Assembly (NCBI GenBank): GCA_964016885.1
Contig: OZ024749.1
Coordinates: 23,312,001 to 23,376,000 of the forward strand
Length of the DNA: 64,000 nt
From: Eledone cirrhosa
Lineage: Eukaryota
Direction: 5' to 3'
Shown: piece after piece, positions 1 through 57,878 of the stretch
How the letters are laid out: each line of letters starts with the position of its first letter
How positions within the stretch are numbered: the first letter of the stretch is position 1
The notes under the pieces: generated by a model
What the model was told of the DNA's origin: nothing
What the model saw: the letters and a program-made list of their open reading frames with translations, nothing else
Databases searched by the model: none
Translations under genes and position numbers: made by a program

Positions 1-1853
1 ACCTCTTTGCTAGCACCTTGGCCAAAATCTGTAACTCTGTATTTAGCAGAGTTATGGGCCTGAAGTTACTTATTTCGTCCCCCTTGTTCTCGTCCTTCCT
101 CACTAGCGTGACTACGCCCTTGGTCACAGTACAGGGAATTCTCCCGTTCTGTTGCCAGTTGCAGTAGACCGCCTCGAGGAGATCGGGGAACAAGTCCGGC
201 ATAGCTAGATATAATTCGTAAGGAAGACCATCGAGACCCGGGGATTTGCGTTTGCCGCATTGACTCAGCACGTCCTCTATCTCAGCGGCCGAAATCGGCT
301 CCTCGCAGGACTTCTCCTCCCTGTCCGAGAGGCGCGGCAGGCCGTCGAGGTATGGACCGAAGTCCACGTTCCCAACCGGCTCCCCGCCCCTCCCGAACAG
401 TCGGGCAAAGTGCCTTTGAAAGGCCTCACACATCTGCTTAGGCTCAAGAATCGCCCGTCCATCCAGGTCTCGCAAAGACCGGATGGTGGATTTAGTTCCA
501 CTGTTGGCCTCTGTCACGCGGGCCCAGCTAACAGCTTTGGTCCCCTCGTTCCCTAGAGCACGTATTTTACTTCGGACAACGCAGCCTTCGTGCTTCGCGT
601 CGAAAAACTGGCTCAAAGCCGTTCTCGACGCTAGCACTCTGGCCACGTCGCCGCTTCTAATTGCCTCTTCTACTCTATCTATTAGCTCCCTTTCCTTCCT
701 ATTCCTATCCGCAGCTAGAACCTTACTAAATTCTATCGAGACTACTCTAATCTCTCTCTTTAGAGATACCCACCACCTGCTGTTGACGATCGCTCCAGTC
801 AACCGTTCCTTAACTAACGTACTAATCCGATTCCTGTAGGCTCTACTTGCCGGCAAAGACAAGTTGAGCTTCCAGTAACCGGGGCCCTGTCTATGAGTTC
901 TGTCAAGGTTGACCATGCAGGTCACTAATTTGTGGTCTGAATAGCCAACCATGCGCATTTTTGGACAACTTAAAAAGTCCTTATCCTTAATTCTAACTAA
1001 GAACCTATCTAGGTACGACCTAGATGATCCGCTACGATTTGCCCAAGTCCAGGTTGGCGCAGTCGGAAAATCTAGTCGATATCTATCGGCCAGGTCAAAT
1101 CGACCGATTAACCCTTTGAGGCTATTACACCCCTCTCTATCGGGGCAGGCCCCTACGTAGTCCCAGCGTGCATCTAGGATACCATTCCAGTCCCCCACTA
1201 ATAGCAAGGAGCGGGACGTCCCTAGAAAAGTCTCCAGACGATGGAAGAAGTCCGGCCGCATTGACCCGAAAGGGCCGTAGGCGGCTACCAACCTAAACGC
1301 TCCGCCTTTACCACTGCCAAGGTCCAGAACCACTAGTCGACCCTCCGGGTCCAAATGTACCATCTGTGTTGCGAGACCCAGATGTTTTTGCAGCAGAACG
1401 ACAACTCCACCCCCACCTCCGGGCTGACAGAGAGATGCGTGCATCTCAAAGTCATCAAAGGTGGGGGCCAGCTGTCGCACGTTGCTGATCCGGGCCTCGC
1501 AAATAACCATCACATCTATACGTTGTGACCTGAGGTCATTTAGAAGCATTGCTTGCTTCCAAGTTGAGCCCAGGCCACGCGCATTTAAACAGCCTACTCT
1601 TAGCATAGCCATGTTGGTGGTGAAGAGAAAAGGCACTTACCTCTCTGCGTCCCGGGTATCGGGCTGCACAATTTCCATTAGGGTGGGGGATGGGTTGTTG
1701 GGTGGGGTGGTGGTTTGTGGAAGTGTGGGGGCATCAGTGTGTTGTGTGGTTGGGGAGCTTGGAGTTGTGAGGGTGTTTGGGGAGGGGGTGGGATAGTTTT
1801 TTAGGAGGACGCGGTTAATGGGCCCGACGCAGGGGGGACCCACGTCCTCTTTT
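1..1853 (-). mobile_element. Tx1-clade (L1 group) non-LTR retrotransposon, 5'-truncated within ORF1, runs off the left edge; 5' junction in (TATC)n
   Basis: Minus strand reads an ORF1 C-terminus (KEDVGPPCVGPINRVLLK, like EKDVGNSCVKPLNRVLLK at ~4580), then an ORF2 homologous to 4878.. and 45145..; abuts (GATA)n at 1854-1876. Confidence 0.93.
2..1612 (-). CDS. Tx1 ORF2 N-terminal half: APE endonuclease plus start of RT (partial, open to the window edge)
   Basis: ATG at 1612; MAMLRVGCLNARGLG..ICEARI..GDWNGILD..SYLDRF..YSDHK..PGYWKLN..KSPGLDGLP..NFRPITLLNTE..ILAKVLAKR, same frame at both ends; missing from the ORF track because it has no stop inside the window. Confidence 0.9.
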   Translation of the reverse strand, partial: MAMLRVGCLNARGLGSTWKQAMLLNDLRSQRIDVMVICEARISNVRQLAPTFDDFEMHASLCQPGGGGGVVVLLQKHLGLATQMVHLDPEGRLVVLDLGSGKGGAFRLVAAYGPFGSMRPDFFHRLETFLGTSRSLLLVGDWNGILDARWDYVGACPDREGCNSLKGLIGRFDLADRYRLDFPTAPTWTWANRSGSSRSYLDRFLVRIKDKDFLSCPKMRMVGYSDHKLVTCMVNLDRTHRQGPGYWKLNLSLPASRAYRNRISTLVKERLTGAIVNSRWWVSLKREIRVVSIEFSKVLAADRNRKERELIDRVEEAIRSGDVARVLASRTALSQFFDAKHEGCVVRSKIRALGNEGTKAVSWARVTEANSGTKSTIRSLRDLDGRAILEPKQMCEAFQRHFARLFGRGGEPVGNVDFGPYLDGLPRLSDREEKSCEEPISAAEIEDVLSQCGKRKSPGLDGLPYELYLAMPDLFPDLLEAVYCNWQQNGRIPCTVTKGVVTLVRKDENKGDEISNFRPITLLNTELQILAKVLAKR

Positions 1854-1898
1854 ATAGATAGATAGATAGATAGATATATATATATATATATATATATA

Positions 1899-2117
1899 AG
1901 AGGAATTCCAACTTTGTCTGATTTACTCGTTTTATTTTCGATACTTTAAAATTTATAATGGTATTATCATGAAATAGTATGATAGAATATTAAATGTTAA
2001 GTGTTAATTGAACAAGTACTTTCATGCTTTCGCAATCTTCAGGTTCATAATTTGTGGTGACAGTCAAGTTTGCAAATTCAACTGCAGTTGAAAATTGCAA
2101 ACTTGACTGTCACCACA
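1899..2117 (-). mobile_element. Penelope-like element pLTR fragment with hammerhead motif and 5' fold-back
   Basis: Minimal hammerhead at 2009-2047, near-perfect palindrome at 2053-2117, AT-rich tail ending in (TA)n at ~1898. Confidence 0.6.
2009..2047 (-). ncRNA. Minimal type-I hammerhead ribozyme (copy 1)
   Basis: Minus: UGAAC CUGAAGA UUGC-GAAA-GCAU GAAA GUAC UU GUUCA; 5-bp stem I, GNRA-capped stem II, palindromic stem III. Confidence 0.8.
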
Positions 2118-2121
2118 CCTT

Positions 2122-2630
2122 GAGAATGGCCCGAGTGAATGGGCCTTCTCTCTATATCAGCCTGTATGTTGAGGAAAAGGAGGAGGAGAGGAAAGGAGTA
2201 CAAAGAGTTTGTACTCCTTTCCTCTTCTCCTCCTTGTTAATTGAACAAGTACTTTCATGCTTTCGCAATCTTCAGGTTCATAATGTGTGGTGACAGTCAA
2301 GTTTGCAAATTCAACTGTAGTTGAAAATTGCAAACTTGACTGTCACCACACCTTGAGAATGGCCCAAATGAATGGGCCTTCTCTCTATATCAGCCTGTAG
2401 GTTGAGGAAATGGAGGAGGAGAGGAAAGGAGTACAAACTCTTTGTACTCCTGGAGATGTGGGTTGCACATTTTTTTTTCGGCGGTATGTGTTACCCATAT
2501 GAACTGTCTCCCTCTATTGGGGAAAATCGACTAACTTTTTAAATTCCATTTGTGATAACATTTTACACGTTTTTATTGTATGTAAACTTCCCCCTTTGTA
2601 TTTGTCCCCTTCTGTTGTGCCCTGTAGAAA
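2122..2630 (+). mobile_element. Tx1 3'-end fragments (2122-2235 and 2355-2630) interleaved with a duplicated pLTR piece
   Basis: GAGAATGGCCCGAGTGAATGGGCC.. (RMARVNGPSLYISL) and 3' UTR match 7520-7790; ends in (TATC)n at 2633-2664. Confidence 0.88.
2242..2280 (-). ncRNA. Minimal type-I hammerhead ribozyme (copy 2, identical, 233 bp away)
   Basis: Same sequence as 2009-2047, inside a tandem duplication. Confidence 0.8.
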
Positions 2631-2881
2631 TATATCTATCTATCTATCTATCTATCTCTCTATCAGACGTGTGTAACTTCGCGGAGAAGTTTCCGTTAAT
2701 TTATGTAAGAAAAAAACGTGAGATTTTAGTTAAATTTTATATCATTGTGTAACATGACGCCCCGTCTGAACCTTCAGGTGCTGGGTCAACTCATTTTCGC
2801 CCCTACAAGGGCGGAATATCCATTTGAAATTTTTTTCTCCATCGAATCTTGGAAAAAATATTGTAAAATTTTGATTACGTT

Positions 2882-4844
2882 ATGAATGCTGCGGCCAACG
2901 ATAATGGTGGTGGAGAGGCGGTAAGACTACAAAGCTCGCAGTCCACAACGTCTTCTTCACTAGATACTATAGAGATGGAAAGACGAAATGAAAATGTAAA
3001 AACGAATTCATATTCAAACAACACAAATGACTCCAAACAATTCAAATACAATAAAAATAACAGCAACACCAATAATGATGATAAAAGCAACAATGATAAC
3101 AACAACAAAGAAAAAAATAAAGACAACACCAATAACACCAGCATCAAAGACAACAACACCACCAAGGAAAATACGGATAATACCAACATCCGTGACAACA
3201 AGATTAACAACAAGAATAACAACAATAATGACAACACCACCAATACAGATTTCACAAAGAAACCAAAAATCTCCTTTGCAGAGAAAGTTAAAAAGGAAGA
3301 ATTGATATATCTCGACATAACAAATGCTGAACAACTTTTAAAGGACGCTAGGAGATATGTCAGTTTCGAAAGAAATGGTGCTTTCAGCATCAATTCTCCG
3401 GTAGAAATTCGCAAGGAAACTGCTCTCAAAACGATAGTTTTTAGGACAGTTTCCAATTCTTCCCGAAAACCAGTCCAATTGTCACAGAAAGAAATTGAAC
3501 TGGTTTTCAAAACTTCAATGAATGATATTGCATTCATTCAAAGAAGCAAACTTTTTGGGAGTATTTCGGTACTCATGAAGGATCAATTGACGGCCCAAAA
3601 TTACTCTGTGTCGCCAATTGTATCCAACCTGTACACCTTTTTCCCTACATACATGGGAAAAAGGACACAAAAGATCAGAATCACGAGTGTCACACCAAAG
3701 GTGAACATATGGTGGATACTGTGCGGCTTCATCAATTTTGAAGACAGAATACTGTCAGTAGGAATGTCCCCCAGAGATGTATTCAATGGGACTAGCATTG
3801 AAGTTCTGGTGCAAATGAGCCCAGAGCGAATAGCTATGATCACACAACGTGTACTCCTGGACGGACTCACCTACATAAACTTTTCGGTTGAGGGTAGGCG
3901 GCCTTCATGTTACCATTGCTTTAGCAGGGGTCACCTGAGGGCTTCCCGTCCTAAATTAATGAATAAAAAAAGGCTCTTCTGCCGACACCCATTAAAACAA
4001 CACAACCACCAACACCACCACAACAACAACAACACCAACTCACAAAAATAACCACAACAAACACAATCCCACCCAACCCCACTCCACCTAAAACCACTGC
4101 AAAATCACATACAGGCAGAACAGCTCCCCAAGACATACCCCTCCCCAATCACACAGACGATACAACAGATGAGGCTATCTCGCCATCACCCAGGGAAGAC
4201 GAGGGAGAACCCCATCGCTCGAAAAGAAAGAAAAGACATCACAAAAGCAAAAAACCAGCAAACACTACCACACACATACAACCACCAACACAAATAACAA
4301 AAACATCACAAACAAAACCCCCACCTCCTGAAAACAAATTACCTACAACAAAACGAAAGCACACATAAGAACTACAGACAAAAACAAACACAACACAAGA
4401 AAACTACACTTACACTTACATAAACACTGAAAACAAAACACTAATGGAGACCATCACGAACGACCCTTCGGGGAAAACCGAATGGAAAATTTCGCCCTCT
4501 CTATTAAAAATAGCAAAAAACTGAACCTAAAACTGATTAGGGTCCCTATACAAACTTATAGGTCCCTAAAAGAAACATTTGAGAAGGATGTGGGGAATTC
4601 CTGCGTGAAACCACTCAACCGCGTCCTTCTCAAATGTCTCCCCACTCCAGACACCCCCATCCCACCAGACACCACCCCACCAAACATCTGCGTCCCCACC
4701 CCAAACACCCCCATCCCACCAGACCCCACCCCACCAAACATATGCGTCCCCACCCCGCCGGAAACCACCACCCATCCAGACAACCCCTCCAACACCCCCA
4801 TGGAAATCGTGCGGCCTGGTCCCCAGGAGACGAAGGGTGAGTGA
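2882..4844 (+). pseudogene. Tx1 ORF1 (gag-like, CCHC knuckle), frameshifted
   Basis: ORFs 2882-4051 and 4482-4844; SVEGRRPSCYHCFSRGHLRASR (last Cys changed to Arg) aligns with SVEGKRPKCFRCGSKTHLRAFC of 45181-47280. Confidence 0.88.
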
Positions 4845-4877
4845 TCTCTTTTCCTCTTTTAACTTTTCAGCACCAAC

Positions 4878-7565
4878 ATGGCCAATATAAGAGTTGGATA
4901 TGTGAACGTACGCGGCCTGGGGATGCCCTGGAAACAGGGCAATCTCTTAAACGACCTCAGGTCGCACAGTATGGATGTGGTAGCCATTTGCGAGTCCAGG
5001 ATCCACAGCGAGCGACAGCTGGCCCCCATCTTCGATGACTTTGAGATCTACGCATCTCTCTGTCAACCGGGGGGTGGGGGCGGAGTTGCCGTTTTGCTGC
5101 GGAAACACCTGGGCCTCGTAACACAGACGGTACATCTGGACTCGGAGGGTCGACTGGTGGTACTAAACGTTGACGGTAGTGAAGGTGGAGCCTTCAGGCT
5201 GGTGGCCGCATATGCCCCATCCGGGACACCGCGGCCAGACTTCTTCAAACGTCTAGAGACTTTTCTGGGAACGTCCCGCTCCTTGCTTTTAGTGGGGGAC
5301 TGGAATGGAATCCTAGATGCACGTTGGGACTATGTGGGAGCATGTCCCGATAAAGGGGGGTGTAACAGCCTCAAACAGTTAATCGACCGATTTGACCTGG
5401 CCGATAGATATCGACTAGATTTTCCGACTGCGCCACTGTGGACGTGGAGTAATAGTAGCGGAACATCTAGATCGTACCTAGATAGGGTTCTAGTTAGAAA
5501 TAAGGAAAGGGACATGTTAAGCTGTCCACAAATGTTCATGGTTGCCTATTCAGATCACAAACTAGTGACCTGCATGGCCAACCTTGATAGAACCCATAGA
5601 CAAGGACCCGGCTACTGGAAGCTGAAATTGTCGTTACCGACAAGCAAAGCCTACAGTAGATGGTTTAGCACTTTAGTAAAACAGCACTTGACAGGGGCCA
5701 TTGTCAACAACAGATGGTGGTACTCTCTCAAGAGGGCAGTTAGATTAGACTCGATAGTTTTTAGTAAAGAATTAGCGTTAGATAGAAATAGAACCGAGAA
5801 GGAACTGGTAGATAAAGTAGAAGAGGCAATTAGAAGTGGTAACGTAGCCAGCGTGCTAGCAACGAGAACGGCCTTGGACCAGTTCTTCGACGCAAAGCAC
5901 GAGGGCTGCGTTGTCAGAAGCAAAATACGTGCTCTGGGAAATGAGGGAGCCAAAGCTGTTAGCTGGGCCCGAATGACGGAGGCAAAAAGTGGCAACAAGT
6001 CAACGATTCGGTCTTTGAAGGACCAAAACGGACGCGTGATACGTGAGCCGAAGCAGATGTGTGCGGCTTTTCAGCGGCACTTTGCTCAACTGTTCGGGGG
6101 GGGGGGGCTATGGATTTCGGTCCATACCTCGACGGTCTACCGCGACTCTCGGGCAGCGAGGCAAAGTTCTGCGAAAAGCCGATTTCAGCCACTGAGATAG
6201 GGGACGCGCTGAGACAATGCGGCAAACGCAAATCTCCAGGTCTCGACGGTCTACCCTACGTATTTTACGTAGCAATGCCGGACTTATTTTCCGGTCTCCT
6301 GGAAGCCGTCTACTGCAACTGGCAAGTCCATCGGTTTGCAACTCGGATCGTGGAGAGGCAAACCGATGCCTTTCGATGGCGTCGTCGGACGCTGGACGGA
6401 AGGAGCGGTAAAGCTGCTTGGGGTCTGGTTTGGTCCGGATCTCCAGGTGGAGAAGAACTGGAACGAAGTGACGGCCAAGGTGTTTGCACTCACCCAGAAG
6501 TGGGCCGAGTGCAAACTATCCTTGAAAGGTCGAGCGGAGGTGGAGAACACTTTTATAGCGTCCGCCATCTACTACCGCTTCACCGTCGTGCCTTGTCCAG
6601 CCAAAACGCTCGCCAAAATGGAGCGCGCGCTCTTCCGATTCCTTTGGAAGAGGCGGGCTCCTTTAGTGAGAAGATCCATCTGCTGCCAACACCCTTCTAA
6701 CGGAAGGTTGGGGATGCCGTGGTTAACGATGCGCAAACACGCGCTCAGGCTGCGGCATCTCTACGTATTCCTCACCGGACAACCGGTGTGGGCCCCGTTC
6801 GTGAGGCGAGCCTTCCCACGACTCGTCTCGCTGACCGAGCTGCAGTCCTGGGTCATCGAATGTGCTCAGGCGCTCACAGCCCTCTGGTAGGCGGACCCGG
6901 CGATCAGTGGAGACTCCACTTCGTCATTCTATAGAGGGTTGATCCGCAGCAAGTGAGACGACGCGCTCGGTGAAACTCTAGGCGTAGAGGAAGATGAACT
7001 GGCCAGTCTGTTCGGTAGGACCTTCCACCCGGAACCGATGGACAACTTCCAAAAGTCCCTGGCCTGGCAGTGCTACCGAGGAGCTCTACCAGTTCGAGAC
7101 AAGCTCTACAGACATGGGCGCCCGGGAAGGGACCCTGCAAAAAAGATCTGTCCGAGGTGCGTGTGAGACGAAGAAACCGTCGCGCACGCATTCATACACT
7201 GCTCGGGCGTCACTGACCTGTGGGGCTATGTAGAACGACTATTGTCGCGGGTGGGACCAATCCGGTTGACCACCGAGTCCATTGTCATGATCAAACCGCC
7301 ACCCTCCTTCAAAAACGAAGGAGAGGCGGTTTTCCTTTGTGTGATAGCTATGGCGAAAGAGGTTGTTTGGTGGACAAGGTTGAAAGGGCTGAGGTCAGAC
7401 ACATTTCTCTCCGGCCAACAACTGATTCTTTTTTTCAAATACCACTTTGGAAGGAGAATCAGGATGGAGAGAGAGGTGCTGTACCCCAGCAAGTTTTATG
7501 AATGGTGGGTGAAAGTGGCGAGAATGGCCCGAGTGAATGGGCCTTCTCTCTATATCAGCCTGTAG
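4878..7565 (+). pseudogene. Tx1 ORF2: APE intact, RT core deleted, frameshifts and stops
   Basis: APE motifs NVRGL, CESR, GDWN, YLDR, SDH; frameshift at the G-run ~6096; YCNWQ joined directly to SIGLQLGSW at ~6326; stops at ~6888 and ~6955; C-terminal CPRC..H...C. Confidence 0.92.
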
Positions 7566-8319
7566 GTTGAGGAAAAGGAGGAGGAGAGGAAGAGAGTACA
7601 AACTCTTCGTACTCCTGGAGATAAGGGTTGCACATTTCTTCGGGGGTATGTATTACCCATATAAACTGTCTCCCCCTATTGGGGAAAATCGACTAACTTT
7701 TTAAGTGGCATTTGTGATAACATTTTACACGTTTTTATTGTATGTAAACTTCCCCCTTTGTATTTGTCCCCTTCTTTTGTGCCCCTGTGGCTAATAAAGA
7801 AATCTATCTATCTATCTACCTATCTATCTATCTATATATATATATATGCATATCAATGTTTGTGTATTTAGCAGCTCTGTGTACGTGTATACTATAAATC
7901 AATAGACAACATGACTTTTAAGCACTTTCCTGTTTTTTCCATTTATATTTCCTTAGTCAAAATATATATATTTAATAGTTGGAATAAAATGTTCACTAAC
8001 GTATCTCGCCTTTCCCTCACCAGCTATCTGGTATGGTTTTCTTTTCTAAGAAACATTTACCAGAATATTCTTCTAGAAAGACACGATCCCATGAGCTACC
8101 TGCCACGTATTGGCCAATTATCGTTAACCTTATATTTATTTATTAACCACAGAGTATGATGGTATGTAAAGTCACTTTTCATATCAGAAGACGTGATAAT
8201 ATAATATTTGGCTTTATTTCAATTTGATATTTCACTGCAGTCGTAATTGCAGTGACATTTATCAAATTTATAATTGTGTTTGTTAAGGGAAACAGGTTTC
8301 CCAGCCAGTCATTACCATT

Positions 8320-9360: not shown

Positions 9361-9485
9361 CTGTCTGTGCGGTCGTTGCTGTCTTTTTCCTGCGGTTGCT
9401 GCTCTTGTGTTGATGTTGATAGGTCGATATTATGCTGCTGTTGTTCTTATTTATTTGCTGCTGTTGTGCTGTTGTTGTTCTAGAT

Positions 9486-10654: not shown

Positions 10655-10801
<147 letters not shown>

Positions 10802-29474: not shown

Positions 29475-31817
29475 ACGGACATTGGACAAGTGCGTGCAGA
29501 ACGGTTTCGTCGTTCTGTGCGCATCTTGGGCAGGTCCGTCTGACAGCACTTCCGTGCCTGTAGAGTTTATCCCGAACCGGCAGTGCCTCCCTGTAGCACT
29601 GCCAAGCGAGGGATTTCTGGAAATTGTCCATCGTCCCCGGCTCAAAAGTCCTCCGGTACAGACTGGTCAGTTCGACTTCGTCCAGGCCCAAAGCTTCTCC
29701 GAGTGCGTCATTGCACTTGCCCACCACTAATCCTCTATAGAACTCGAGAGTGGAAGTTCCACTGATCGCATTGCCCGCTTCGTAGAGGGCAGTGAGTGCC
29801 TGGCAACATTCCAGGTGCCAGTCACCCAGTCTCGGTCTCTTCTTGACCCAGGATTGCAGCTCAGTCAAATAAATGAGCTGCGGAAAGCCCATCTGATAAA
29901 CGGCGACCACACCTGTTCACCGTTGAGGCAGAATATCTGGAGATGTCGCAGCCTCAACGCATGTCTGCTCATCATTAGCGACGGCATGCCCAGCCCTCCG
30001 CGTAGAGGGTGCTGGCAGCAGATGGACCGCCTCACCAACGGAACTTCTCCTCTCCACAATAATTTGAAGAGGAGCCGTTCCAACTTGATGAGGCGCGGAC
30101 GGGGCCAAGGCACGACGGTCAGGCGGTAGTAGATGACGCATGCGATGTAAGCATTCGCCACCTCCGCTCGACTTTTCAGTGATAGCTTCCTCCAAGCCCA
30201 TTTTTGGGTGAGACTGGCTACTCTGCTCGTTACCTTGTCCCAATTCTTTTCCACCTGGAGGTCTGGTCCGAACCAAACCCCAAGCAACTTTACCGGTCCG
30301 TCCGTCCAGCGCCCACGACGCTGTTGGACGGCATGGGTTTACCTCTCCAGGTTCCGAGCTGCAAGCCCACCGACTTTTCCGGCTTAAGTTTGGCTCCTGT
30401 CAACCTTTCATATTCCTTCAATAAGGTGCCGACCACCTCGATTTCTGAGGTGTTCGACACCATCACGGTGATGTCGTACGCATAAGTCGACACCGCCTTT
30501 CCACGTCCCGGTTCAAGAGGAATGGCCTGCTACATTTCCAGCTTCCGCAGTAAAGGCTCGAGAGTCAATACGTACAGAAGGGAGGAGAGAGGGCACCCTT
30601 GACGGACCGATCGGGAGAGCCGAAATGGTTCCGAGAGGTGGCCATTAACCTTGACCACCGAGCGTGTGCCGCTGTGCATTGCAACGATCCAGCTTCTAAA
30701 GACAGGGCCGAAGCCAGCAGCTTTAAGGACAAATTCCAGATACCGATGGTCGACCCTATCGAATGCTTTCGATTGATCTAAATTGATCAGTGCCCCACCG
30801 AAGCCAGGTTTACACCCTACCCTCTCTATGACGTATCGCATGAGCTGGAGATTGTCGTGTATGGACCTGGCTCTGGGATTGCGCAAGTTTGCGCCTCCCC
30901 AACCAAATCCTCGACGACAAGCGCCAATCTCTTTGCTAACACCTTGGCCAAAATCTTAAACTCTGTTTTGAGCAGAGTTATGGGCCTGAAGTTGTCTAAT
31001 GTATCCCTCTTGTTCTCGTCTTTCCTTATCAGCGTCACCATTCCCCTGCTCACAGAAGTGGGAATACTCCCATTCTGCTGCCAGTTGCAGTAAAGTGCTT
31101 CGAGGGGTTCGGAGAACAATTCTGGCATATTTACGTAAAGCTCGTAGGGCAGGCCATCCAGACCGGGTGACTTGCGCCTTATGCAGCCGACAAAGGCGTC
31201 CTGAATTTCGGCTGAAATAATCCGCCTTTCGCAACGCTCAGAGTCGACCGTCGAGATGCGCGGCAAGCCATCAAGATAGGGACTGAAATCCGCAACTCTC
31301 TCTGACTCGCCACTCTCCCCGAACAACCGAGCAAAGTGCTGACGAAAGACCTCACACATCCGCTTGGAATCGCTTATCTCGTGTCCGTCTCGGTCCGCCA
31401 AAGACCGAATTGTGGTTTTATTACCACGCTTCGCCTCCGCCACGCGGGCCCATCGAACAGCTTTGGTTTCCTGATTTCTCAGCGCACGCGCCTTAGCTCT
31501 GACAATGCAACTTCGTTTTTCGCATTGAAGAAATGGTCTAATGCCATTCTCGCCGCTAGCACGTCAGTTGCAATGCCACTACAAATAGCCTCGTCTAACT
31601 TATCTACCAGCTCCCCCTCCTTTCTATGTTTCTCTAACGCTAGTTCTTTGCTGAACTCTATCGAAGTTACTCTAATCTCTCTTTTGAGAGCCCCCCCCCC
31701 CATCTATTGTTGATGATCCCTCCTGTCAACTTTTGCTTAACTAAATTGTTGACTCGGTCCCTGCAAGCCTTACGTGCCGGAAATGACATGTTCAGCTTCC
31801 AGTAACCCGGTCTTAAC
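29475..31817 (-). pseudogene. Decayed Tx1-clade ORF2 fragment (distinct family), truncated at both ends
   Basis: Frameshifted pieces PGYWKLN..KSPGLDGLP..NFRPITLL..LDQSKAFDRV..QGCPLS..YAYD (YADD mutated)..CPRC..HALVQCP; 5' junction at (CTA)n 31818-31867. Confidence 0.92.
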
Positions 31818-31868
<51 letters not shown>

Positions 31869-31917
31869 ATAATAATAATAATAATAATAATAATTATAAT
31901 AATAATAATAATAATAA
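31818..31917. repeat. (CTA)n then (TAA)n; left edge of the TAA array
   Basis: Direct reading. Confidence 0.95.
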
Positions 31918-34900
31918 GGGAAGAAGACGCACGAGGTGACGGAGGTCATGAAATCGCTCCCGTAAGTTTTGAATTTTTAACATATTTAAATCATTTGTGA
32001 AATAACAACTCTTAGTACAAATGCTACGTAAAGCACCCGGCTTGAGCCCCAAAAAATTCGGACCCAAAATATATTGTTATAAGGCTCAAATATTCAAATA
32101 TTCAACTTTGTATTGTACACTGTATATCCAAAAAAAAATGGCTATAAATGGAAGAAGAAGAACCCCCCCCCTCCTCTCCTCTGGCTACACTATATAGGAC
32201 AGCTAAACTCACCAACACCAGAAACTAGATACACCGCCCACCCCATCATCTGTGTACACTAAACACAACAGCATTTTCACCTTCACCGCCACCGCTCACT
32301 ACGGCCATCATTACCACCACTATCCCATCACCGCCGCCACCACCCCTTGACTCCTTCACTGCTGCTGCCACCGCTACAGCACCATCACTACAGTAATACG
32401 GCTCAAATATTCAAATATTCAACTTTGTATTGTACACTGTATATCCAAAAGAAAAAAAAAAAATAAATAAAATAAAATGGCTATAAATGGAAGAAGAAGA
32501 ACCCCCCCCTCCTCTCCTCTGGCTACACTATATAGGACAGCGAAACTCACCAACACCAGAAACCAGATACACCACCCACCCCATCATCTGTGTACACTAA
32601 ACACAACAGCATTTTCACCTTCACCGCCACCGCTCACTACGGCCATCATTACCACCACTATCCCATCACCGCCGCCACCACCCCCTGACTCCTTCACTGC
32701 TGCTGCCACCGCTACAGCACCATCACTACAGTAATACGGTCGCATCACCGCCACCACTGCCTCGGTATCGACATCACCGCCACCACTGTCTCAGTATCGC
32801 CAACGCCGCTAGTCTCTGCTGGCTACCACTTCCACATTATAGAATTCCTACTACCAACAAAGAGGAAGGCATCAAAATATATAGATAGACTCAAAAGAAA
32901 AAAGAAAAAACAAACAACAAAAGCAGCACAGCAACAACAGTAAAAAACGAGAAAAACAGAGAAAAACAAAAACAAAAAAAGAAACCCCAAAAACGTAAAG
33001 AAAATAAGAATGAAGAGAGAAGCAGGCGGACGGACAGAGAAGAGGGGGGAAAAAGTAAAACTTAAAAAACAAAAACTAAGTCAGACATTCGAATACTACA
33101 TTACAATGAAACTTATGCTTATTCATTTTTGGGGCCCTTTCTGCCCGTGTGTTTGTTTGTTTATGTGTGTCCGTATACAGCGTGGTGATAATGCCACACA
33201 AGGGCCAAGTGGGATGGCGGATCCACAGATGGCTATGTAAACATACATTCGCCAATCCTCGATAAGAGTGTTTAAATATCGAACATAAACAGTTCGAATA
33301 ACGGTGAAATGGAGACTAGAACGTCATGTGACAGACTCTCACCCAACAGGTGCCCCCTGGCTCAGCAGCAGGAACCTGACTGTCAACGAAATACTGCTGA
33401 TGTTTGAGGAAGAAGAAGAAGGAAAGGGGCCAGAACCAACTGGACGAAAGAATTGAATAGAACTGTTATGCAATGCTACCTGAAAAGTAACCCCAAGGAG
33501 AGGGGCTACAGGAGACGGATGCATAACATCTGGAACGAGATTGGTTTATTTAAATTAGATGAACAAAAATTGGCCGGGCAGGCTCGGGTAATAAGAACTA
33601 ATGGGTGGATAAGCGAGCTGGAACTGGAGGAACTGAGCAGAGAGAATGGCTTGGAGATGGCGGGTGTAGTATGCCAGACAAGCGAGCCGGCGGGAAATGA
33701 AGGTGAGGAGGTCCTGAGAGCGGAGGAACCACCCGAAGCAGACAATGATCTGAATACTGAGATAAATAATACCTGGAACAGAGATACGGCCACTGAGGAG
33801 ATGAATGCTGACGGGCTAGGACAAGATTCGATTGACATCCTAAATTTAGTGGTAGATGAGTTGAACAATGATAGTGGGAGACCTATGAACCTAAGATTTG
33901 TAGACAGGAAAAAGTTAAAAGAAACAACAGCTAAGGTAAACAAAGTCATCCCATACCTTGAGGCGAGGAGTCTTCACCAGTGCAACAATATCCTCAAAGC
34001 AACAGCAAATACGGTGAGGAAACTACTTGGTATAAAAGCGAGAGGAAACAACAGACAAGAAAGAGCAGAGCCGTGGTGGAAGAAGCGACTGAGTGGGCAA
34101 ATCGGGGAAATGAGAAATGACATAGCAAAGCTTGAGTCACTACTGAATGGGACACTAAAAAACATAGGCACTAAAAATAGACTGGAAATAAAATACAAAA
34201 CTAGGAGTAAAAAGCTAAATATTATCATAGAGGAATTGAAGCAACGCATTGTAGCAAAGAGTGCCAAAATCAGGCGATACGAGAACAGAGTCAGTCAGTA
34301 TAAACAGAACCGCATGTTCGACAACAACCAGAAGATGCTGTTTGGACAGCTTGAGGGGAAAGAAAGAGGCACCGACTTGATCCCTGGGGCGGAACAAGCT
34401 AAAACATTCTGGAGAGGAATATGGGAGCAGGATGTTAGACACAATGCCCAGGCAGGGTGGATTGAGACAGTACAGAGGGAGATCGGTGAGCAGGCACAGC
34501 AACAGACTGATTTGAGTATCACAGTTGAAACTCTTAAGGGGCAAGCCGAAAAACTAACCAACTGGACATCACCAGGCCCAGATGGTGTGCAGGGGTATTG
34601 GATTAAACATGTAACATCCCTCCACCCGAAGCTGACGGCCATGTTCAATGACTGCTTGGTGTCGGGTGAGGTGCCAGAGTGGTTGACAAAAGGTACCACA
34701 GTTCTGATAATGAAAGACCGAATCAAGGGTAATGATGTTACCAACTATAGACCTATCACATGTCTGCCCGTAATGTGGAAACTGTTGACGAGCATTGTGT
34801 CTGAGGAAATCTACCATCACCTCCACACAAACAACTTGTTGCCGGACGAACAGAAAGGATGCCGAAAGAAGTCACGTGGTACAAAGGACCAGTTGCTTAT

Positions 34901-36775
34901 TGATAAGATGGTAATGGGGAATTGCAGGAGGAGACACACTGATCTTGCCATGGGATGGATAGACTACAGAAAGGCATTTGACATGGTGCCTCATTCCTGG
35001 ATCACCAAAAGCCTGGAGATCTTCAGGGTGGCAGATAACATCAGACAGTTGCTGGGCAGGAGTATGGGGTCCTGGGAGACAGAGTTGACATCAACTGGAG
35101 TATCCTTGGGAAGCGTGAAGATCAAGAGAGGTATCTTCCAGGGAGGTAGCCTGTCCCCTCTGTTGTTTGTCCTTGCCCTGATGCCCTTGACCATTATGCT
35201 GCGAAAAGTGAGAGCAGGATACAAGTTGGGAAGGGGAGAGCTTACCATCAATCACCTCCTCTTCATGGACGATCTTAAGCTCTTCGGGAAAAGTGAGAAG
35301 GAGTTGGATGTGCTTGTTGACACTGTCCGTATTTTCAGCAGTGATATATGTATGCAGTTTGGTATTGGTAAATGTGGAGTCATTGTGATGAGGAGGGGTA
35401 GGTTGAGCAGAAGTAACGGGATCCAGATACCAACAGGTGAGATGATAAAGGAAATTGACTCTGAGGAAGGATACAAGTATTTGGGCGTTCTGGAGGCTGA
35501 TGGCATAAAGAACAAAAAAATGAAGGAATTGTTAAGAACTGAATACATTCGGAGAGTAAGGAGCGTATTGAAGTCACATCTGAACAGCAGAAATGCCATA
35601 AGCGCAGTAAATTCCCGAGCTGTGTCTATTATTAGGTACAGTGCGGGAATTCTGAGATGGAATGTTGCTGAACAAAAAGAAATGGATAGGAAGACTAGGA
35701 AGCTATTGACTATCTACAACATGTTCCACAAGAGGAGTGATGTCGATAGACTCTACCTAAGGAGATCTGAGGGTGGAAGAGGTCTTATCAGCATAGAGGA
35801 CTGTGTTCAGATGGAGAAAAACAACCTATACAAATACGTGACCTATAGTAAGGAGCCAATGCTCAGAGCTGTACTGAAGGAGGGGACAGTAGGCCAGGGG
35901 ATACCCAAGGAGGAAATAACATCAAGGAGGAAGAGCAGCCTTAAGGGAAAATCCCTTCATAGTACCTTCTTTGAGAAAACTGAATTTAGAGATCCACAGA
36001 CATGGAACTGGTTGAGAAGAGGAGACCTCAAAAAGGCTACAGAAGGAATGCTAATGGCTGCGAAGGAGCAGGCCCTCAAAACGAAGTGGTTGAAGCACCA
36101 TATCTACAAGGAGGAGGCTAGCCCACTGTGCAGGATCTGTGGAGAGAGAGAGGAGACTGTGGCTCACATTGTGTCCGAGTGTAAACACCTAGCCCAGACC
36201 CACTATAAGGGCTGGAGACACGATGTGATGGGCAGGGTGATCCACTGGCACCTGTGCAAAGTAAACAATCTACCACATTCTGAGAAATGGTATGAGCATA
36301 GGCCAGAGGCGGTGATGGAGAACAGTCAGGTGAAGGTGCTGTGGGATTTTAGGATACAGACGGACAAAAAACTGGAACACAATAGACCTGACCTGGTGGT
36401 TGTGGACAAAGAAAAAAGATCGTGCCTGATTGTGGATGTGGCCTGCCCGTTCGACACGAGAGTGCAAGAGAAGGAGAGGGAGAAAATTAACCGATACCAG
36501 GACCTAAAGTGGGAGGTGAAAAGGATTTGGAACTGCCATGAAGTCAAAGTGATCCCGATTGTCATAGGCGCACTGGGGACTATCTCCAAAGGTTTCCAGG
36601 AATGGTTAAAGAAAATCGGCCCCTTCACGCTTTTTGGAACGCTTCAAAAGGCATGCTTGCTTGGAACGGCAAGAACCCTCCGATACGTCCTGAATATCTG
36701 AGGCTGCAGGTAGTGGCTTGATATTCAATCCAACGGACTTTCCAGTTAACCAACATCAATGACTGAGATTCAAGG
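31918..36775 (+). mobile_element. Full-length R4/Dong-clade RLE LINE (family a, copy 1) in (TAA)n
   Basis: TAA tracts on both sides; ~1.4-kb 5' UTR, single ORF, short 3' UTR ending GAGATTCAAGG then (AAT)n. Confidence 0.95.
33309..36701 (+). CDS. R4/Dong polyprotein: Myb-like N-terminus, RT, CCHC knuckle, PD-(D/E)xK restriction-like endonuclease; premature TGA at 33405
   Basis: WTKELNRTVMQCY..RGYRRRMH; NYRPITCL; WIDYRKAFD; LFMDDLKL; YKYLG; CRIC..ETVAH...C; RHD; RPDLVVVD..DVACP..K..KINRY. ATG 33309 is in frame with the 1082-aa ORF. Confidence 0.93.
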
Positions 36776-36812
36776 AATAACAATAACAATAATAATAATA
36801 ATAATCATAATC

Positions 36813-36852
<40 letters not shown>

Positions 36853-39800
36853 GGAAGAAGACGCACGAGGTGACGGAGGTCATGAAATCGCTCCCGTAAG
36901 TTTTGAATTTTTAACATATTTAAATCATTTGTGAAATAACAACTCTTAGTACAAATGCTACGTAAAGCACCCGGCTTGAGCCCCCAAAAATTCGGACCCA
37001 AAATATATTGTTATAAGGCTCAAATATTCAAATATTCAACTTTGTATTGTACACTGTATATCCAAAAAAGAAAATGGCTATAAATAGAAGAAGAACCCCC
37101 CCCCCCCCCCATCCTCTCCTCTGTCTACACTATATAGGACAGCCAAACTCACCAACACCAGAAACTAGATACACCACTCACCCCATCATCTGTGTACACT
37201 AAACACACCAGCCAGATAACGGCATTTTCACCTTCACCACCACCGCTCACTACGGCCATCATTACCACCACTATCCCATCACCGCCGCCACCACCCCTTA
37301 ACTCCTTCACTGCTGCCACCGCTACAGCACCATCACTACAGTAATACGGTCACATCACCGCCACCACTGCCTCGGTATCGACATCACCACCACCACTGTC
37401 TCAGTATCGCTACCGCCGCCAGTCTCCCACTTCTCCCTGCTGGCTGCTACTTCCACATTATAGAATTCCTACTACTAACAAAGAGGAAGGCATCAAAATA
37501 TATATATAGATAGACTCAAAAGAAAAAAGAAAAAACAAACAACAAAACCAAAGCAGCACAGCAACAACAGCAAAAACGAGAAAAACAAACAGAGAAAAAC
37601 AAAAACAAAAAAAGAAACCCCAAAAACGTAAAGAAAATAAGAATGAAGAGAGAAGCAGGCGGACGGACAGAAAAGAGGGGGGAAAAACTAAAACTTAAAA
37701 AACAAAAACTAAGTCAGACATTCGAACACTACATTACAATGAAGCTTATGCTTATTCATTTTTGGGGCCCTTTCTGCCTGTGTGTTTGTTTGTTTATGTG
37801 TGTTCGTATACAGCGTGGTGATAATGCCACACAAGGGCCAAGTGGGATGGCGGATCCACGGATGGCTATGTAGCCATACATTCGCCAATCCTCGATAAGA
37901 GTGTTTAAATATCGAACATAAACAGTTCGAATAACGGTGAAATGGAGACTAGAACGTCATGTGACAGACTCTCACCCAACAGGTGCCCCCTGGCTCAGCA
38001 GCAGGAACCTGACTGTCAACCAAATACTGCTGATGTTGGAGGAAGAAGAAGAAGGAAAGGGGCCAGAACCAACTGGACGAAATAATTGAATAGAACTGTT
38101 ATGCAATGCTACCTGAAAAGTAACCCCAAGGAGAGGGGCTACAGGAGACGGATGCATAACATCTGGAACGAGATTGGTTTATTTAAATTAGATGAACAAA
38201 AATTGGCCGGGCAGGCTCGGGTAATAAGAACTAATGGGTGGATAAGCGAGCTGGAACTGGAGGAACTGAGCAGAGAGAATGGCTTGGAGATGGCGGGTGT
38301 AGTATGCCAGACAAGCGAGCCAGTATGAAATGAAGGTGAAGAGGTCCTGAGAACGGAGGAACCACCCGAAACAGACAATGATCTGAATACTGAGATAAAT
38401 AATACCTGGAACAGAGATACGGCCACTGAGGAGATGAATGCTGACGGGCTAGGACAAGATTCGGTTGACATCCTAAATTTAGTGGTAGATGAATTGAACA
38501 ATGATAGTGGGAGACCTATGAACCTAAGATTTGTAGACAGGAAAAAGTTAAAAGAAACAACAGCTAAGGTAAACAAAGTCATCCCATACCTTGAGGCGAG
38601 GAGCCTTCACCAGTGCAACAATATCCTCAAACCAACAGCAAATAAGGTGAGGAAACTACTTGGTATAAAAGCGAGAGGAAACAACAGACAAGAAAGAGCA
38701 GAGCCGTGGTGGAAAAAGCGACTGAGTGGGCAAATCGGGGAAATGAGAAATGACATAGGAAAGCTTGAGTCACTACTGAATGGGACACTAAAAAACATAG
38801 GCACTAAAAATAGACTGGAAATAAAATACAAAACTAGGAGTAAAAAGCTAAATATTATCATAGAGGAATTGAAGCAACGCATTGTAGCAAGAGTGCAAAA
38901 ATCAGGCGATACGAGAACAGAGTCAGTCAGTATAAACAGAACCGCATGTTCGACAACAACCAGAAGATGCTGTTTGGACAGCTTGAGGGGAAAGAAAGAG
39001 GCAACGACTTGATCCCTGGGGCGGAACAAACTAAAACATTCTGGAGAGGAATATGGGAGCAGGATGTCAGACATAATGCCCAGGCAGGGTGGATTGAGAC
39101 AGTACAGAGGGAGATCGGTGAGCAGGCACAACAACAAACTGATTTGAGTATCACAGTTGAAACTCTTAAGGGGCAGGCCAAAAAACTAACCAACTGGAAA
39201 TCACCAGGCCCAGATGGTGTGCAGGGGTATTGGATTAAACATTTAACATCCCTCCACCCGAAGCTGACGGCCATGTTCAATGACTGCTTGGTGTCGGGTG
39301 AGGTGCCAGAGTGGTTGACAAAAGGTACCACAGTTCTGATAATGAAAGACCGAATCAAGGGTAATGATGCTACCAACTATAGACCTATCACATGTCTGTC
39401 CGTAATGTGGAAACTGTTGACGAGCATTGTGTCTGAGGAAATCTACCATCACCTCCACACAAACAACTTGTTACCGGACGAACAGAAAGGATGCCGAAAG
39501 AAGTCACGTGGTACAAAGGACCAGTTACTTATTGATAAGATGGTAATGGGGAATTGCAGGAGGAGACACACTGATCTTGCCATGGGATGGATAGACTACA
39601 GAAAGGCATTTGACATGGTGCCTCATTCTTGGATCACCAAAAGCCTGGAGATCTTCAGGGTGGCAGATAACATCAGACAGTTAGTTGCTGGGCAGGAGTA
39701 TGGGATCCTGGGAGACAGAGTTGACATCAACTGGAGTATCCTTGGGAAGCGTGAAGATCAAGAGAGGTATCTTCCAGGGAGATAGCCTGTCCCCTCTGTT

Positions 39801-41410
39801 GTTTGTCCTTGCCCTAATGCCCTTGACCATTATGCTGCGAAAAGTGAGAGCAGGATACAAGTTGGGAAGGGGAGAGCTTACCATCAATCACCTCCTCTTC
39901 ATGGACGATCTTAAGCTCTTCGGGAAAAGTGAGAAGGAGTTGGATGTGCTTGTTGACACTGTCCGTATTTTCAGCAGTGATATATGTATGCAGTTTGGTA
40001 TTGGTAAATGTGGAGTCATTGTGATGAGGAGGGGTAGGTTGAGCAGAAGTAGCGGGATCCAGATACCAACAGGTGAGATGATAAAGGAAATTGATTCTGA
40101 GGAAGGATACAAGTATTTGGGCGTTCTGGAGGCTGATGGCATAAAGAACAAAAAAATGAAGGAATTGTTAAGAACTGAATACATTCGGAGAGTAAGGAGC
40201 GTATTGAAGTCACATCTGAACAGCAGAAATGCCATAAGCGCAGTAAATTCCCGAGCTGTGTCTATTATTAGGTACAGTGCGGGAATTCTGAGATGGAATG
40301 TTGCTGAACAGAAAGAAATGGATAGGAAGACTAGGAAGCTATTGACTATCTACAACATGTTCCACAAGAGGAGTGATGTCGATAGACTCTACCTAAGGAG
40401 ATCTGAGGGTGGAAGAGGTCTTATCAGCATAGAGGACTGTGTTCAGATGGAGAAAAACAACCTATACAAATACGTGACCTATAGTAAGGAGCCAATGCTC
40501 AAAACTGTATGAAGGAGGGGACAGTAGGCCAGGGGATGTCCAAGGAGGAAATAACATCAAGGAGGAAGAGCAGCCTTAAGGGAAAATCCCTTCATAGTAC
40601 CTTCTTTGAGAAAACTGAATTTAGAGATCCACAGACATGGAACTGGTTGAGAAGAGGAGACCTCAAAAAGGCTACAGAAGGAATGCTAATGGCTGCGCAG
40701 GAGCAGGCCCTCAAAACGAAGTGGTTGAAGCACCATATTTACAAGGAGGAGGCTAGCCCACTGTGCAGGATCTGTGGAGAGAGAGAGGAGACTGTGGCTC
40801 ACATTGTGTCCGAGTGTAAACACCTAGCCCAGACCCACTATAAGGGCTGGAGACACGATGTGATGGGCAGGGTGATCCACTGGCACCTGTGCAAAGTAAA
40901 CAATTTACCACATTCTGAGAAATGGTATGAGCATAGGCGGGAGGCGTTGATGGAGAACAATCAGGTGAAGGTGCTGTGGGATCTTAGGATACAGACGGAC
41001 AAAAAACTGGAACACAATAGACCTGACCTGGTGGTTGTGGACAAGGAAAAAAGATCGTGTCTGATTGTGGATGTGGCCTGCCCGTTCGACACGAGAGTGC
41101 AAGAGAAGGAGAGGGAGAAAATTAACCGATACCAGGACCTAAAGTGGGAGGTGAAAAGGATTTGGAACTGCCATGAAGTCAAAGTGATCCCGATTGTCAT
41201 AGGCGCACTAGGGACTATCTCCAAAAGTTTCCAGGGATGGTTAAAGAAAATCGGCCCCTTCACGCTTTTTGGAACGCTTCAAAAGGCATGCTTGCTTGGA
41301 ACAGCAAGAACCCTCCGATACGTCCTGAATATCTGAGGCTGCAGGTAGTGGCTTGATATTCATTCCAAAGGACTTTCCAGTTAACCAACATCAATGACTG
41401 AGATTCAAGG
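36853..41410 (+). mobile_element. Full-length R4/Dong family a, copy 2, head-to-tail with copy 1
   Basis: Same 5' start GGAAGAAGACGCACGAGG after TAA tract 36776-36852; same 3' end; TAA tract 41411-41461. Confidence 0.95.
37942..41336 (+). pseudogene. R4/Dong ORF, disrupted
   Basis: Stops at 38083 and 38326; frameshifts at ~38890, ~39682 (4-bp insertion) and ~40509 relative to copy 1. Confidence 0.93.
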
Positions 41411-41416
41411 AATAAC

Positions 41417-41463
<47 letters not shown>

Positions 41464-41725
41464 TTTCTTTATTAACCACAAGGGTTTACATAAAGTAGAC
41501 ATTAAGGACAGTGCAGGACAACGCAGGACGGTACAAATGGGCATTTCTGCGTGTAAAAAAAACAAAAACAGAGGATGTAACAAAAATAACAATGAAAATA
41601 ACAATGAAAAATTCCCCAATAGGGGGGGAGACTTCGGAGGGACATTTATGGAGAAAGCCCAGTAAAAAGCCACAATGACCCTGACCACCAAGGCAAGTGC
41701 CCTCTCCCAGTTTTCCACCTTTAAT

Positions 41726-45145: not shown

Positions 45146-45180
45146 GTTTAAAATAGAGTGGAAATGATAGGAAAGACCAC

Positions 45181-47280: not shown

Positions 47281-47514
47281 GTTGTTTTTTGTTTAAAATG
47301 AAATTTTGGGTACAAAACCCCAATAACTGATTATTTAACCCCGAAGGGCCAAATAACGGACAGAAAGACCCCTCTCACGAGGAGGGGGGTGTCTTTATCA
47401 ACAATTTGGTTCAAGTTTTAAACAATTTACAATTGTTTTAACGGTTAAAAATTACTATACCTTACAGAGCCGAGCCTCCGTCAACCATGGCATTCAATAA
47501 TAATAATAATAATA

Positions 47515-48560: not shown

Positions 48561-48593
48561 AATAACAACAATAATAATAATAACAATAATAAT

Positions 48594-49610: not shown

Positions 49611-49666
<56 letters not shown>

Positions 49667-49927
49667 TTTCTTTATTAACCACAAGGGTTTACATAAAGTA
49701 GACATTAAGGACAGTGCAGGACAATGCAGGACGGTACAAATGGGCATTTCTGCGTGTAAAAAAAACAAAAACAGAGGATGTAACAAAAATAACAATGAAA
49801 ATAACAATGAAAAATTCCCCAATAGGGGGGAGACTTCGGAGGGACATTTGTGGAGAAAGCCCAGTAAAAAGCCACAATGACCCTGACCACCAAGGCAAGT
49901 GTCCTCTCCCAGTTTTCCACCTTTAGT

Positions 49928-53347: not shown

Positions 53348-53382
53348 GTTTAAAATAGAGTGGAAAAGATGGGAAAGACCAC

Positions 53383-55476: not shown

Positions 55477-55710
55477 GTTGTTTTTTGTTTAAAATGAAAT
55501 TTTGGGTACAAAACCCCAATAACTGATTATTTAACCCCGAAGGGCCAAATAACGGACAGAAAGACCCCTCTCACGAGGAGGGGGGTGTCTTTATCAACAA
55601 TTTGGTTCAAGTTTTAAACAATTTACAATTGTTTTAACGGTTAAAAATTACTATACCTTACAGAGCCGAGCCTCCGTCAACCATGGCATTCAATAATAAT
55701 AATAATAATA

Positions 55711-56756: not shown

Positions 56757-56789
56757 AATAACAACAATAATAATAATAACAATAATAAT

Positions 56790-57806: not shown

Positions 57807-57878
<72 letters not shown>

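What the first reader, a model, noticed from the sequence alone, without database searches (positions are those of the whole stretch)
1..7835. Sister Tx1 families with switched microsatellite targets: (TATC)n here, (TTA)n at 41-56 kb
Seen: the element at 2665-7804 has TATC at both ends, the truncated element at 1-1853 has TATC at its 5' junction, and the fragment ending at 2630 has a TATC tail. Their ORF2s align colinearly with the TTA family. The 3' ends are nearly the same up to the tail: CCCTGTGGCTAATAAAGAAATC|TATCTATC versus CCTTGTGGTTAATAAAGAAATC|ATTATT. APE segments sort with target: ASLCQPGGGGGV and DYVGACPD in both TATC elements, versus ASPS(H/R)PGSGGGV and DCVGLADR in the TTA family. 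Inference: a radiation of microsatellite-specific Tx1 elements, giving a natural experiment on how endonuclease loops or the RNA tail set target choice.
Basis: partly seen in the sequence, partly recalled or inferred. Interest (0 to 1): 0.75.

Follow-up and report, generated by a model that had tools for sequence, protein, structure and literature searches.

The report
Octopod retrotransposons homing to different microsatellites
Related L1/Tx1-type retrotransposons in a likely octopod genome sit in different simple repeats (TATC, TTA, TAG) and likely target them, a behaviour known from fish, with two endonuclease loops as untested candidates for the switch.

Summary
The sequence observations hold. 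Elements A, B and C are TATC-flanked; D1 and D2 are TTA-flanked; B and D share the end TAATAAAGAAATC. A third, missed fragment (E) has a (TAG)17 5' junction. Support for targeting is real but thin. A's truncated 5' end abuts TATC (local background 0.2-0.5%), and D1 and D2 end in (AAT)n runs that exist without them. Relatives from another host make no tail of their own (0 of 47 contexts). Against: C's 5' junction lacks TATC, B's 5' TATC is C's tail, and D1/D2 share one 5' junction. The loop 'sorting' inside the window is mostly ancestry (A=B≠D at 51 of 237 endonuclease sites), and the classic L1 hairpin does not sort. These loops align to L1 K70 and R155. Target-switched microsatellite Tx1 families are known (Kibi, Koshi, crocodilian Tx1); these targets and this host were not found in print. 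Tx1 clade membership and genome-wide flanks were not tested.

The parts
1..1853 (-). Element A: 5'-truncated copy, begins about 240 nt before the ORF2 ATG (1612); ORF2 open for 527 aa to the window edge (endonuclease, linker, start of RT)
   Evidence: its first bases align to B about 4580; 78.8% nt to B, 70% to D
1854..1898 (-). (TA)n(TATC)5 run at A's truncated 5' junction
   Evidence: 23/24 TATC
2002..2451 (+). 233-bp tandem duplication with fold-back palindromes; holds a 97-nt piece of C (2122-2218); forms C's non-TATC 5' junction
2355..2632 (+). Fragment C: last ~280 nt of a B-family copy (92.5% to B)
2633..2664 (+). (TATC)8 run: tail of C and 5' flank of B (one run)
2665..7804 (+). Element B: near full-length, decayed; ORF1 remnant 2882-4051 (knuckle CYHCFSRGHLRASR, last Cys absent), ORF2 from 4878, ~700-bp RT gap at 6324, 3' end TAATAAAGAAATC, no poly(A)
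   Evidence: 5' UTR covered at ORF1-like depth in run X5
4878..5597 (+). B endonuclease domain; loops ASLCQPGGGGGV and DYVGACPD; hairpin WSNSSGTSR
7805..7847 (+). (TATC)7(TA)n 3' flank of B
29476..31817 (-). Element E: third family fragment (76% nt to D, 69-71% to A/B), 5'-truncated after the endonuclease, 3' end lost
31818..31917 (-). (TTA)n(TAG)17 run; TAG part abuts E's 5' junction, TAA part abuts F1
31918..41411 (+). F1 and F2: two RT + restriction-like-endonuclease retrotransposons with (AAT)n tails, 96% alike (Dong-R4-like by inference); F2's tail hosts D1
41462..47495 (-). Element D1: intact ORF1 (CX2CX4HX4C knuckle) + ORF2 (endonuclease-RT-zinc finger), TTA at both ends
47496..49664 (+). 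Block X, copy 1: (AAT)6 - truncated F - (AAT)n - truncated G - (AAT)18; the F and G parts are identical to copy 2
   Evidence: 0 differences in 2,060 nt
49665..55691 (-). Element D2: intact; differs from D1 at 71 substitutions and 7 gap columns, none of the substitutions in the first 412 nt
55692..57901 (+). Block X, copy 2, ending in an uninterrupted (AAT)n run (57807-57901): the empty equivalent of D2's 3' site

Best explanation
These are related L1-group (Tx1-like) retrotransposon families found in different microsatellites, TATC for A/B/C, TTA for D and TAG for E, and each family likely picks its repeat through two variable endonuclease loops, likely helped by pairing of its untailed RNA end with the nicked strand. 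Shown: the anatomy, the flanks, that the (AAT)n runs exist without D, and that relatives add no tail. Inferred: target-primed reverse transcription from a nick in the GATA-, AAT- or CTA-reading strand. Inferred: RNA ending at or reading through AAUAAAGAAAUC, whose last AUC is in register with both TATC and ATT. Inferred: retargeting by changes in the loops that align to L1-EN K70 and R155 rather than in the classic hairpin. Inferred: D2 as a second insertion whose 5' end was resolved by homology with D1, duplicating 2.1 kb.
For: A's 5' end is a truncation point and so cannot carry an element-encoded repeat, yet it abuts TATC on the tail's strand (23/24; background 0.0019-0.0048). E's truncated end abuts (TAG)17 (24/24; background 0.006-0.007). 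D1 and D2 3' ends lie in (AAT)n tails of other elements, and F1's tail and the empty site 57807-57901 have the same run without D. All 12 perfect TTA runs of 12 nt or more on the minus strand lie in this cluster, and only 1 TTA run (+ strand) lies elsewhere. In the sister lineage (ORF2 41% identical), 0 of 47 distinct 3'-end contexts have poly(A) or a simple repeat; AATAAA joins a subfamily-specific word, found at both outer ends of one array (L086) and shared by two array ends with different outer flanks (L090, L112). The loops align to L1-EN Q64-V74 (includes K70, a strand-2 phosphate contact, PMC8565326 section 14) and to R155 (PMC1950540 passages). The YVGACPD loop is kept in an Argonauta protein only 60-61% identical to A/B. 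Tree: A+B 100/95; E with D 84/99.
Against: C's 5' junction lacks TATC, so 1 of 2 truncated TATC-family junctions fails. Only one independent 5' junction exists for TTA, it is 6 units long and is also the 5' flank of a truncated F. E is a single junction at the edge of the AAT cluster. Within the window the loop sorting is one contrast: A=B≠D at 51 of 237 endonuclease and 32 of 168 linker sites; 109 of 399 12-aa windows sort as well as loop 1, while 10 of 403 8-aa windows sort as well as loop 2. In the sister lineage, states are counted rather than events, subfamilies are related, surface loops vary anyway, silent changes in the loops are also somewhat raised (7 against 4.6 expected), and several junction words rest on one contig. 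L1-EN reads mostly backbone and shape, and loop grafts did not transfer specificity (PMC1950540, PMC8565326). Both loops are poorly or moderately modelled (152-160 pLDDT under 50). None of the 24 loose ends shown of 5,502 was a TATC run, although that tool skips repeats.
Confidence: 0.5

Rival explanations
1. RNA pairing alone sets the target: all families carry a similar endonuclease that nicks flexible TA steps, and read-through of the RNA into the downstream repeat decides which nick can prime. A target switch would then be one chance mis-insertion that perpetuates itself.
For: No poly(A); the shared terminal ATC fits both repeats. All three repeats contain TA steps. Array copies carry drifting variants of one junction word, as if inherited with the RNA. 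PMC1950540 (passages) names RNA-DNA pairing as a possible added factor.
Against: It does not predict amino-acid changes concentrated in two DNA-facing loops among subfamilies with different words, nor the kept loop in Argonauta.
Confidence: 0.2
2. The whole group prefers TA-containing microsatellites in general; the apparent family-to-repeat match is small-number coincidence and there is no switch.
For: Only three families and five informative junctions; A+B form one lineage; TATC flanks are compound with (TA)n, and E's run is compound with TTA.
Against: A and B are 21% diverged and both have TATC; D landed twice in AAT on the same strand; (TA)n, by far the commonest repeat here, is not directly at any junction.
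Confidence: 0.2
3. The repeats are self-made 3' tails, as in simple-repeat-tailed LINEs (recalled), and the 5' repeats come from nesting in a repeat-rich genome; there is no targeting.
For: B's 5' run is C's tail; C's 5' junction has no TATC; the window is dense in microsatellites (216 TRF rows).
Against: A's and E's truncated 5' junctions; pre-existing (AAT)n at both D 3' sites; no self-made tail in relatives (0 of 47).
Confidence: 0.1

Closest known systems
Kibi ((TC)n) and Koshi ((TTC)n) Tx1 families of teleost fish (Kojima and Fujiwara 2004, seen only as cited in PMC4494074 and PMC3812793)
   Same: APE-type non-LTR families, close relatives with different microsatellite targets
   Different: Targets here are TA-containing (TATC, TTA, TAG), the host is likely an octopod, and kinship to Kibi/Koshi could not be tested
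Crocodilian Tx1 group in (TTCC)n/(TTTC)n (PMC4494074, section 15)
   Same: A radiation of eight families in tetranucleotide repeats; target called from flanks
   Different: Pyrimidine-only repeats; no endonuclease loop analysis in the passages read
Dong / Dong-R4 ((TAA)n; PMC3812793 passage; active in octopus, PMC13282606)
   Same: Same repeat as D; the F and G elements that share D's array look like this kind
   Different: F carries a restriction-like endonuclease motif after RT and lies on the opposite strand; D uses an N-terminal APE
Human L1 ORF2p and its endonuclease
   Same: Best solved relative by sequence (E=2e-52 against 1e-21 for R2) and by fold (TM 0.77)
   Different: No poly(A) tail, gag-type zinc knuckle in ORF1, repeat targets; variation sits in the K70 and R155 loops rather than the hairpin
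'L1-Tx1' repeat class of Octopus vulgaris (80 families, 13 recently active; PMC13282606)
   Same: Probably the annotation bin that holds these families (inferred)
   Different: No target or flank analysis in the passages or supplement searched

Membership tests
L1 group of non-LTR retrotransposons | ORF2 with N-terminal APE, RT and C-terminal zinc finger, closest to L1 ORF2p | tested here: met
   Pfam PF03372, PF00078, PF13966; L1 ORF2p E=2e-52 over residues 5-855; fold match to L1-EN
Tx1 clade | RT phylogeny groups it with Tx1L, Keno, Kibi, Koshi | not testable with these tools
   No homolog named Tx1 was returned; the tree has no named Tx1 reference; the supplement of PMC4494074 could not be read
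Tx1 clade | ORF1 with gag-type CCHC knuckle (feature recalled, not from a call) | tested here: met
   D2 CFRCGSKTHLRAFC at 372; B has the motif without the last Cys; no Pfam family in either ORF1
Tx1 clade | Target-sequence preference in many families (PMC4494074) | tested here: inconclusive
   5 informative junctions for, 1 against
Microsatellite-specific Tx1 (Kibi/Koshi kind) | The same repeat type in more than 20% of a family's flanks, both ends (criterion given for target-specific families in PMC4494074) | tested here: inconclusive
   Met on the few window copies (TATC at 2 of 3 5' ends and 2 of 2 visible 3' ends; TTA at all D ends) but not independent and not genome-wide
Microsatellite-specific Tx1 (Kibi/Koshi kind) | Target is (TC)n, (TTC)n, (TTCC)n or (TTTC)n | tested here: not met
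   Flanks are TATC, TTA, TAG; so it works like Kibi/Koshi but is not filed as either
Canonical L1 clade (mammalian type) | Poly(A) tail | tested here: not met
   No poly(A) at B, C, D1 or D2, nor in 47 contexts of relatives
Dong-R4 (elements F and G only) | RT followed by restriction-like endonuclease, in (TAA)n; RT phylogeny in R4 | tested here: inconclusive
   RT and a PD-x-D-like motif read in the translation, (AAT)n at all junctions; phylogeny not run

The most novel reading that the evidence does not exclude
A Tx1-like lineage retargets itself repeatedly by changing a few residues in two endonuclease loops (the L1 K70 and R155 positions), not the textbook hairpin. It gave TATC-, TTA- and TAG-specific families in octopods and at least eight non-repeat-word specificities in a sister host, so that the pairs of loop and target amount to a readable recognition code for APE retrotransposons.
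Probability: 0.25. Interest if true: 0.8.

Novelty: new variant of a known kind. Interest (0 to 1): 0.5.

Why it matters
How APE-type retrotransposons acquire and change sequence specificity is open: a review calls the mechanism of microsatellite targeting 'not well understood' (PMC3812793, passage), and grafting the Tx1L hairpin onto L1-EN did not transfer specificity (PMC1950540). Here an intact element (D2) and an intact endonuclease of a differently targeted relative (A, 61% identical) are at hand, and a sister set of 91-98% identical proteins with different junction words points to a few residues. That makes endonuclease against RNA-end control directly testable, which bears on site-specific gene insertion tools. 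It also shows two unrelated endonuclease classes filling one (AAT)n array from opposite strands, building a 28-kb cluster of nine insertions.

Tried and rejected
No genome was held, so no genome-wide flank test. Laying 4 runs on B showed a large family (20,312, 69,761 and 2,114 contigs; 186,913 reads) with summed depth rising from about 6,000-20,000 at the 5' end to 240,000-620,000 at the 3' end in X5, but repeats were skipped and only 24 of 5,502 loose ends were shown, none at an element end: no verdict. The shared 3'-end pattern gave 0 matches in metagenome and genome contigs. Viral contigs gave nothing. The 80 metagenome loci were distant (21-39%) and were not analysed. Rfam found nothing in the window or in 4 array loci, so no RNA-gene target. 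3' UTR folds were not better than shuffles (z -1.5 to +0.8, 4 of 4). The Atlas and NCBIfam gave no clade name. Five look-ups of earlier findings were empty. I first read D1/D2 as one insertion in a plain tandem duplication and dropped that: 0 differences in 2,060 nt of flank against 71 in 6,032 of D (P about 3e-11); old duplication with later conversion, unequal crossover or an assembly effect remain possible. The first loop test (13 of 201, p=0.0002) included one residue added after seeing the data; the strict version is reported. One of 9 array representatives was dropped because its ORF2 equals another's, and L114 was left out as a separate family. The hairpin as the sorting determinant was rejected (1 of 11 sites sorts; 2 join A with D).

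Full report
WHAT IS THERE. The window is microsatellite-rich eukaryotic DNA. The nearest named homologs are from Argonauta hians (58%) and Octopus bimaculoides, so an octopod host is inferred. It holds six pieces of one non-LTR group: A (1-1853, -), C (2355-2632, +), B (2665-7804, +), E (29476-31817, -), D1 (41462-47495, -) and D2 (49665-55691, -). D has ORF1 with a CX2CX4HX4C knuckle and ORF2 with APE, RT and zinc finger; the best solved relative is L1 ORF2p. A-B are 78.8% identical, D-E 76%, and the two pairs 69-71%. A tree of 31 rows over 243 columns gives A+B 100/95, E with D and two database proteins 84/99, and the octopod group 100/99 (five long outgroup branches, midpoint root). B is decayed; A is open for 527 aa; D1 and D2 are intact. 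Reads show a large family with a steep 5'-to-3' rise in depth, as expected from 5' truncation.

OBSERVATION CHECK. The quoted flanks, 3' ends and peptides are in the sequence. Three things weaken the count. B's 5' TATC and C's tail are one run. C's own 5' junction is not TATC; it lies in a 233-bp duplication with fold-back palindromes, so it may be secondary, but it counts as a miss. D1 and D2 share one 5' junction.

TARGET OR TAIL? A tail made by the element would explain 3' repeats but not 5' ones. A starts at the homolog of B about 4580, so it is truncated, and TATC abuts it on the same strand as the tails; the local chance is 0.0019 (106 of 56,216 24-mers) to 0.0048, about 0.01 for one hit in two tries. 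For D, both 3' ends lie in (AAT)n tails of unrelated restriction-like-endonuclease elements, and the same tails exist without D (F1's tail; 57807-57901). On D's sense strand the order is host-X-D2-X-D1. The F and G parts of X (2,060 nt) are identical in both copies and so are D's first 412 nt, while the D bodies differ at 71 sites. The simplest reading is a second insertion into (AAT)n whose 5' end joined by homology to D1, or an unequal crossover between two insertions. Either gives two independent 3' junctions and one 5' junction; conversion or an assembly effect is not excluded. Independent support comes from a sister lineage: 40 of 42 loci found in genome contigs are eukaryote-type contigs filed in an Arenicella MAG. 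They hold head-to-tail arrays of 6.4-6.85-kb units. In 47 distinct 3'-end contexts (overlapping loci, not 47 events) none has poly(A) or a simple repeat; AATAAA joins a 10-20-nt word that is specific to the subfamily, flanks both outer ends of one array (L086), precedes truncated copies (L089, L092, L112), and is shared by two array ends with different outer flanks (L090, L112). So this lineage adds no tail of its own, and what follows the AATAAA end is likely target.

THE LOOPS. Within the window, sorting is mainly ancestry: A=B≠D at 51 of 237 endonuclease sites and 32 of 168 linker sites. Loop 1 has 4 of 12 (109 of 399 windows as high) and loop 2 has 5 of 8 (10 of 403 as high). The hairpin equivalent to L1 T192-S202 does not sort (D WTNRIGSSR, A WANRSGSSR, B WSNSSGTSR). 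Among 8 subfamilies with 8 different words (91-98% aa), 11 of 201 extra residue states fall in these 21 of 1140 positions (p=0.0014); 11 of 47 within the endonuclease (p=0.002); 2.3% of 20,000 random window pairs reach it. Positions 64 and 65 are two of the four sites with four or five states; the hairpin has one change. By the alignments, read by eye, loop 1 spans L1 Q64-V74 with K70, which contacts strand 2 at -4 to -6 (PMC8565326, section 14 read), and the first varying residue of loop 2 sits at L1 R155 (PMC1950540, abstract and passages read). Limits: states are not events, subfamilies are related, silent changes are also mildly raised (7 against 4.6), several words rest on one contig, and L1-EN reads mostly DNA shape. 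Close homologs show further loop types (for example DYEGMADRR, DCVGLANNR, DAVGLTDRR; 42 of 394 proteins passed the identity filter), so the radiation is wider than the window; their targets are unknown.

MECHANISM. [quoted passage not shown] Nicking, RNA ends and the role of the loops are inferred, not shown. Rivals: RNA pairing alone (0.2), a shared taste for TA-containing repeats without a switch (0.2), self-made tails (0.1). That the elements target microsatellites at all is about 0.9 on these odds; that the target differs by family is about 0.7.

COMPARISON. Microsatellite-specific Tx1 families with different targets are published: Kibi (TC)n, Koshi (TTC)n, and eight crocodilian families in (TTCC)n/(TTTC)n (PMC4494074, passages and section 15 read, supplement not readable; PMC3812793, passages; PMC4640811, passages; Kojima and Fujiwara 2004 not read). 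(TAA)n is known as the Dong target (PMC3812793). Octopus L1-Tx1 is listed as abundant and active without target analysis (PMC13282606, passages and supplement search; PMC8967140, passages). Eight searches found no report of TATC, TTA or TAG targets for Tx1 or of target-specific octopus elements; Repbase, Dfam and subscription journals were not searched and may hold these families, and the unread supplement of PMC4494074 may list further targets. It works like Kibi/Koshi. Membership of the L1 group is met; membership of the Tx1 clade fits the anatomy but could not be tested without named references.

VERDICT. A real feature and a new variant of a known kind: new repeats, a new host group and a testable pair of candidate loops, on thin junction numbers. 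Interest 0.5. If the loop-to-target code holds (0.25), 0.8.

Noticed in passing
L081-L120, L123-L132 (contigs CAXXMW01, handle G001): Eukaryote-type contigs filed in a bacterial MAG carry long head-to-tail arrays (up to about 6 units seen) of a related element, with at least 8 subfamilies, each separated by its own 10-20-nt word and without tails; likely repeated insertion at the element's own target duplication. It also means the MAG is contaminated.
   Followed up: partly
window 29476-57901: A 28-kb cluster of nine retrotransposon insertions from four families and two endonuclease classes, with (AAT)n at every internal junction; APE elements on one strand, restriction-like ones on the other.
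   Followed up: partly
window 47496-49664 and 55692-57901: A 2.1-kb block is identical on both sides of D2 although D1 and D2 differ by 1.3%: looks like a very long target duplication made by homology-resolved 5' joining.
   Followed up: partly
window 53380-53390 (-), 1640-1650 (-), 4837-4845 (+); L088 about 14378: A splice-donor-like word GGTRAGT lies 30-45 nt before the ORF2 ATG in D, A and B (closer in the array relative), followed by a pyrimidine tract in the window elements; may bear on ORF2 expression.
   Followed up: no
window 2002-2451: 233-bp tandem duplication with two fold-back palindromes, one grown from the small 3' UTR hairpin of C; suggests template switching during repair.
   Followed up: partly
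window 32076-32739: F1 carries a ~320-bp internal duplication in its 5' untranslated region that F2 lacks.
   Followed up: no
window 8321-9477 and 28520-29475: Two related long TTG/CTG-rich repeats (72% over 966 columns, inverted); the second replaces E's 3' end.
   Followed up: no
window 15364-15587 and 20554-20801: Related 41-bp tandem repeats containing TGACGTCA-like words, in inverted orientation.
   Followed up: no
window 62357-62585 and 63010-63140: Near-perfect inverted duplications (fold-back structures) read directly in the sequence, about 200 and 60 bp per arm.
   Followed up: no
L114:3971-8600: A separate, more distant family in the same MAG contigs with a different hairpin loop and a longer 3' region; left out of the loop test.
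   Followed up: no
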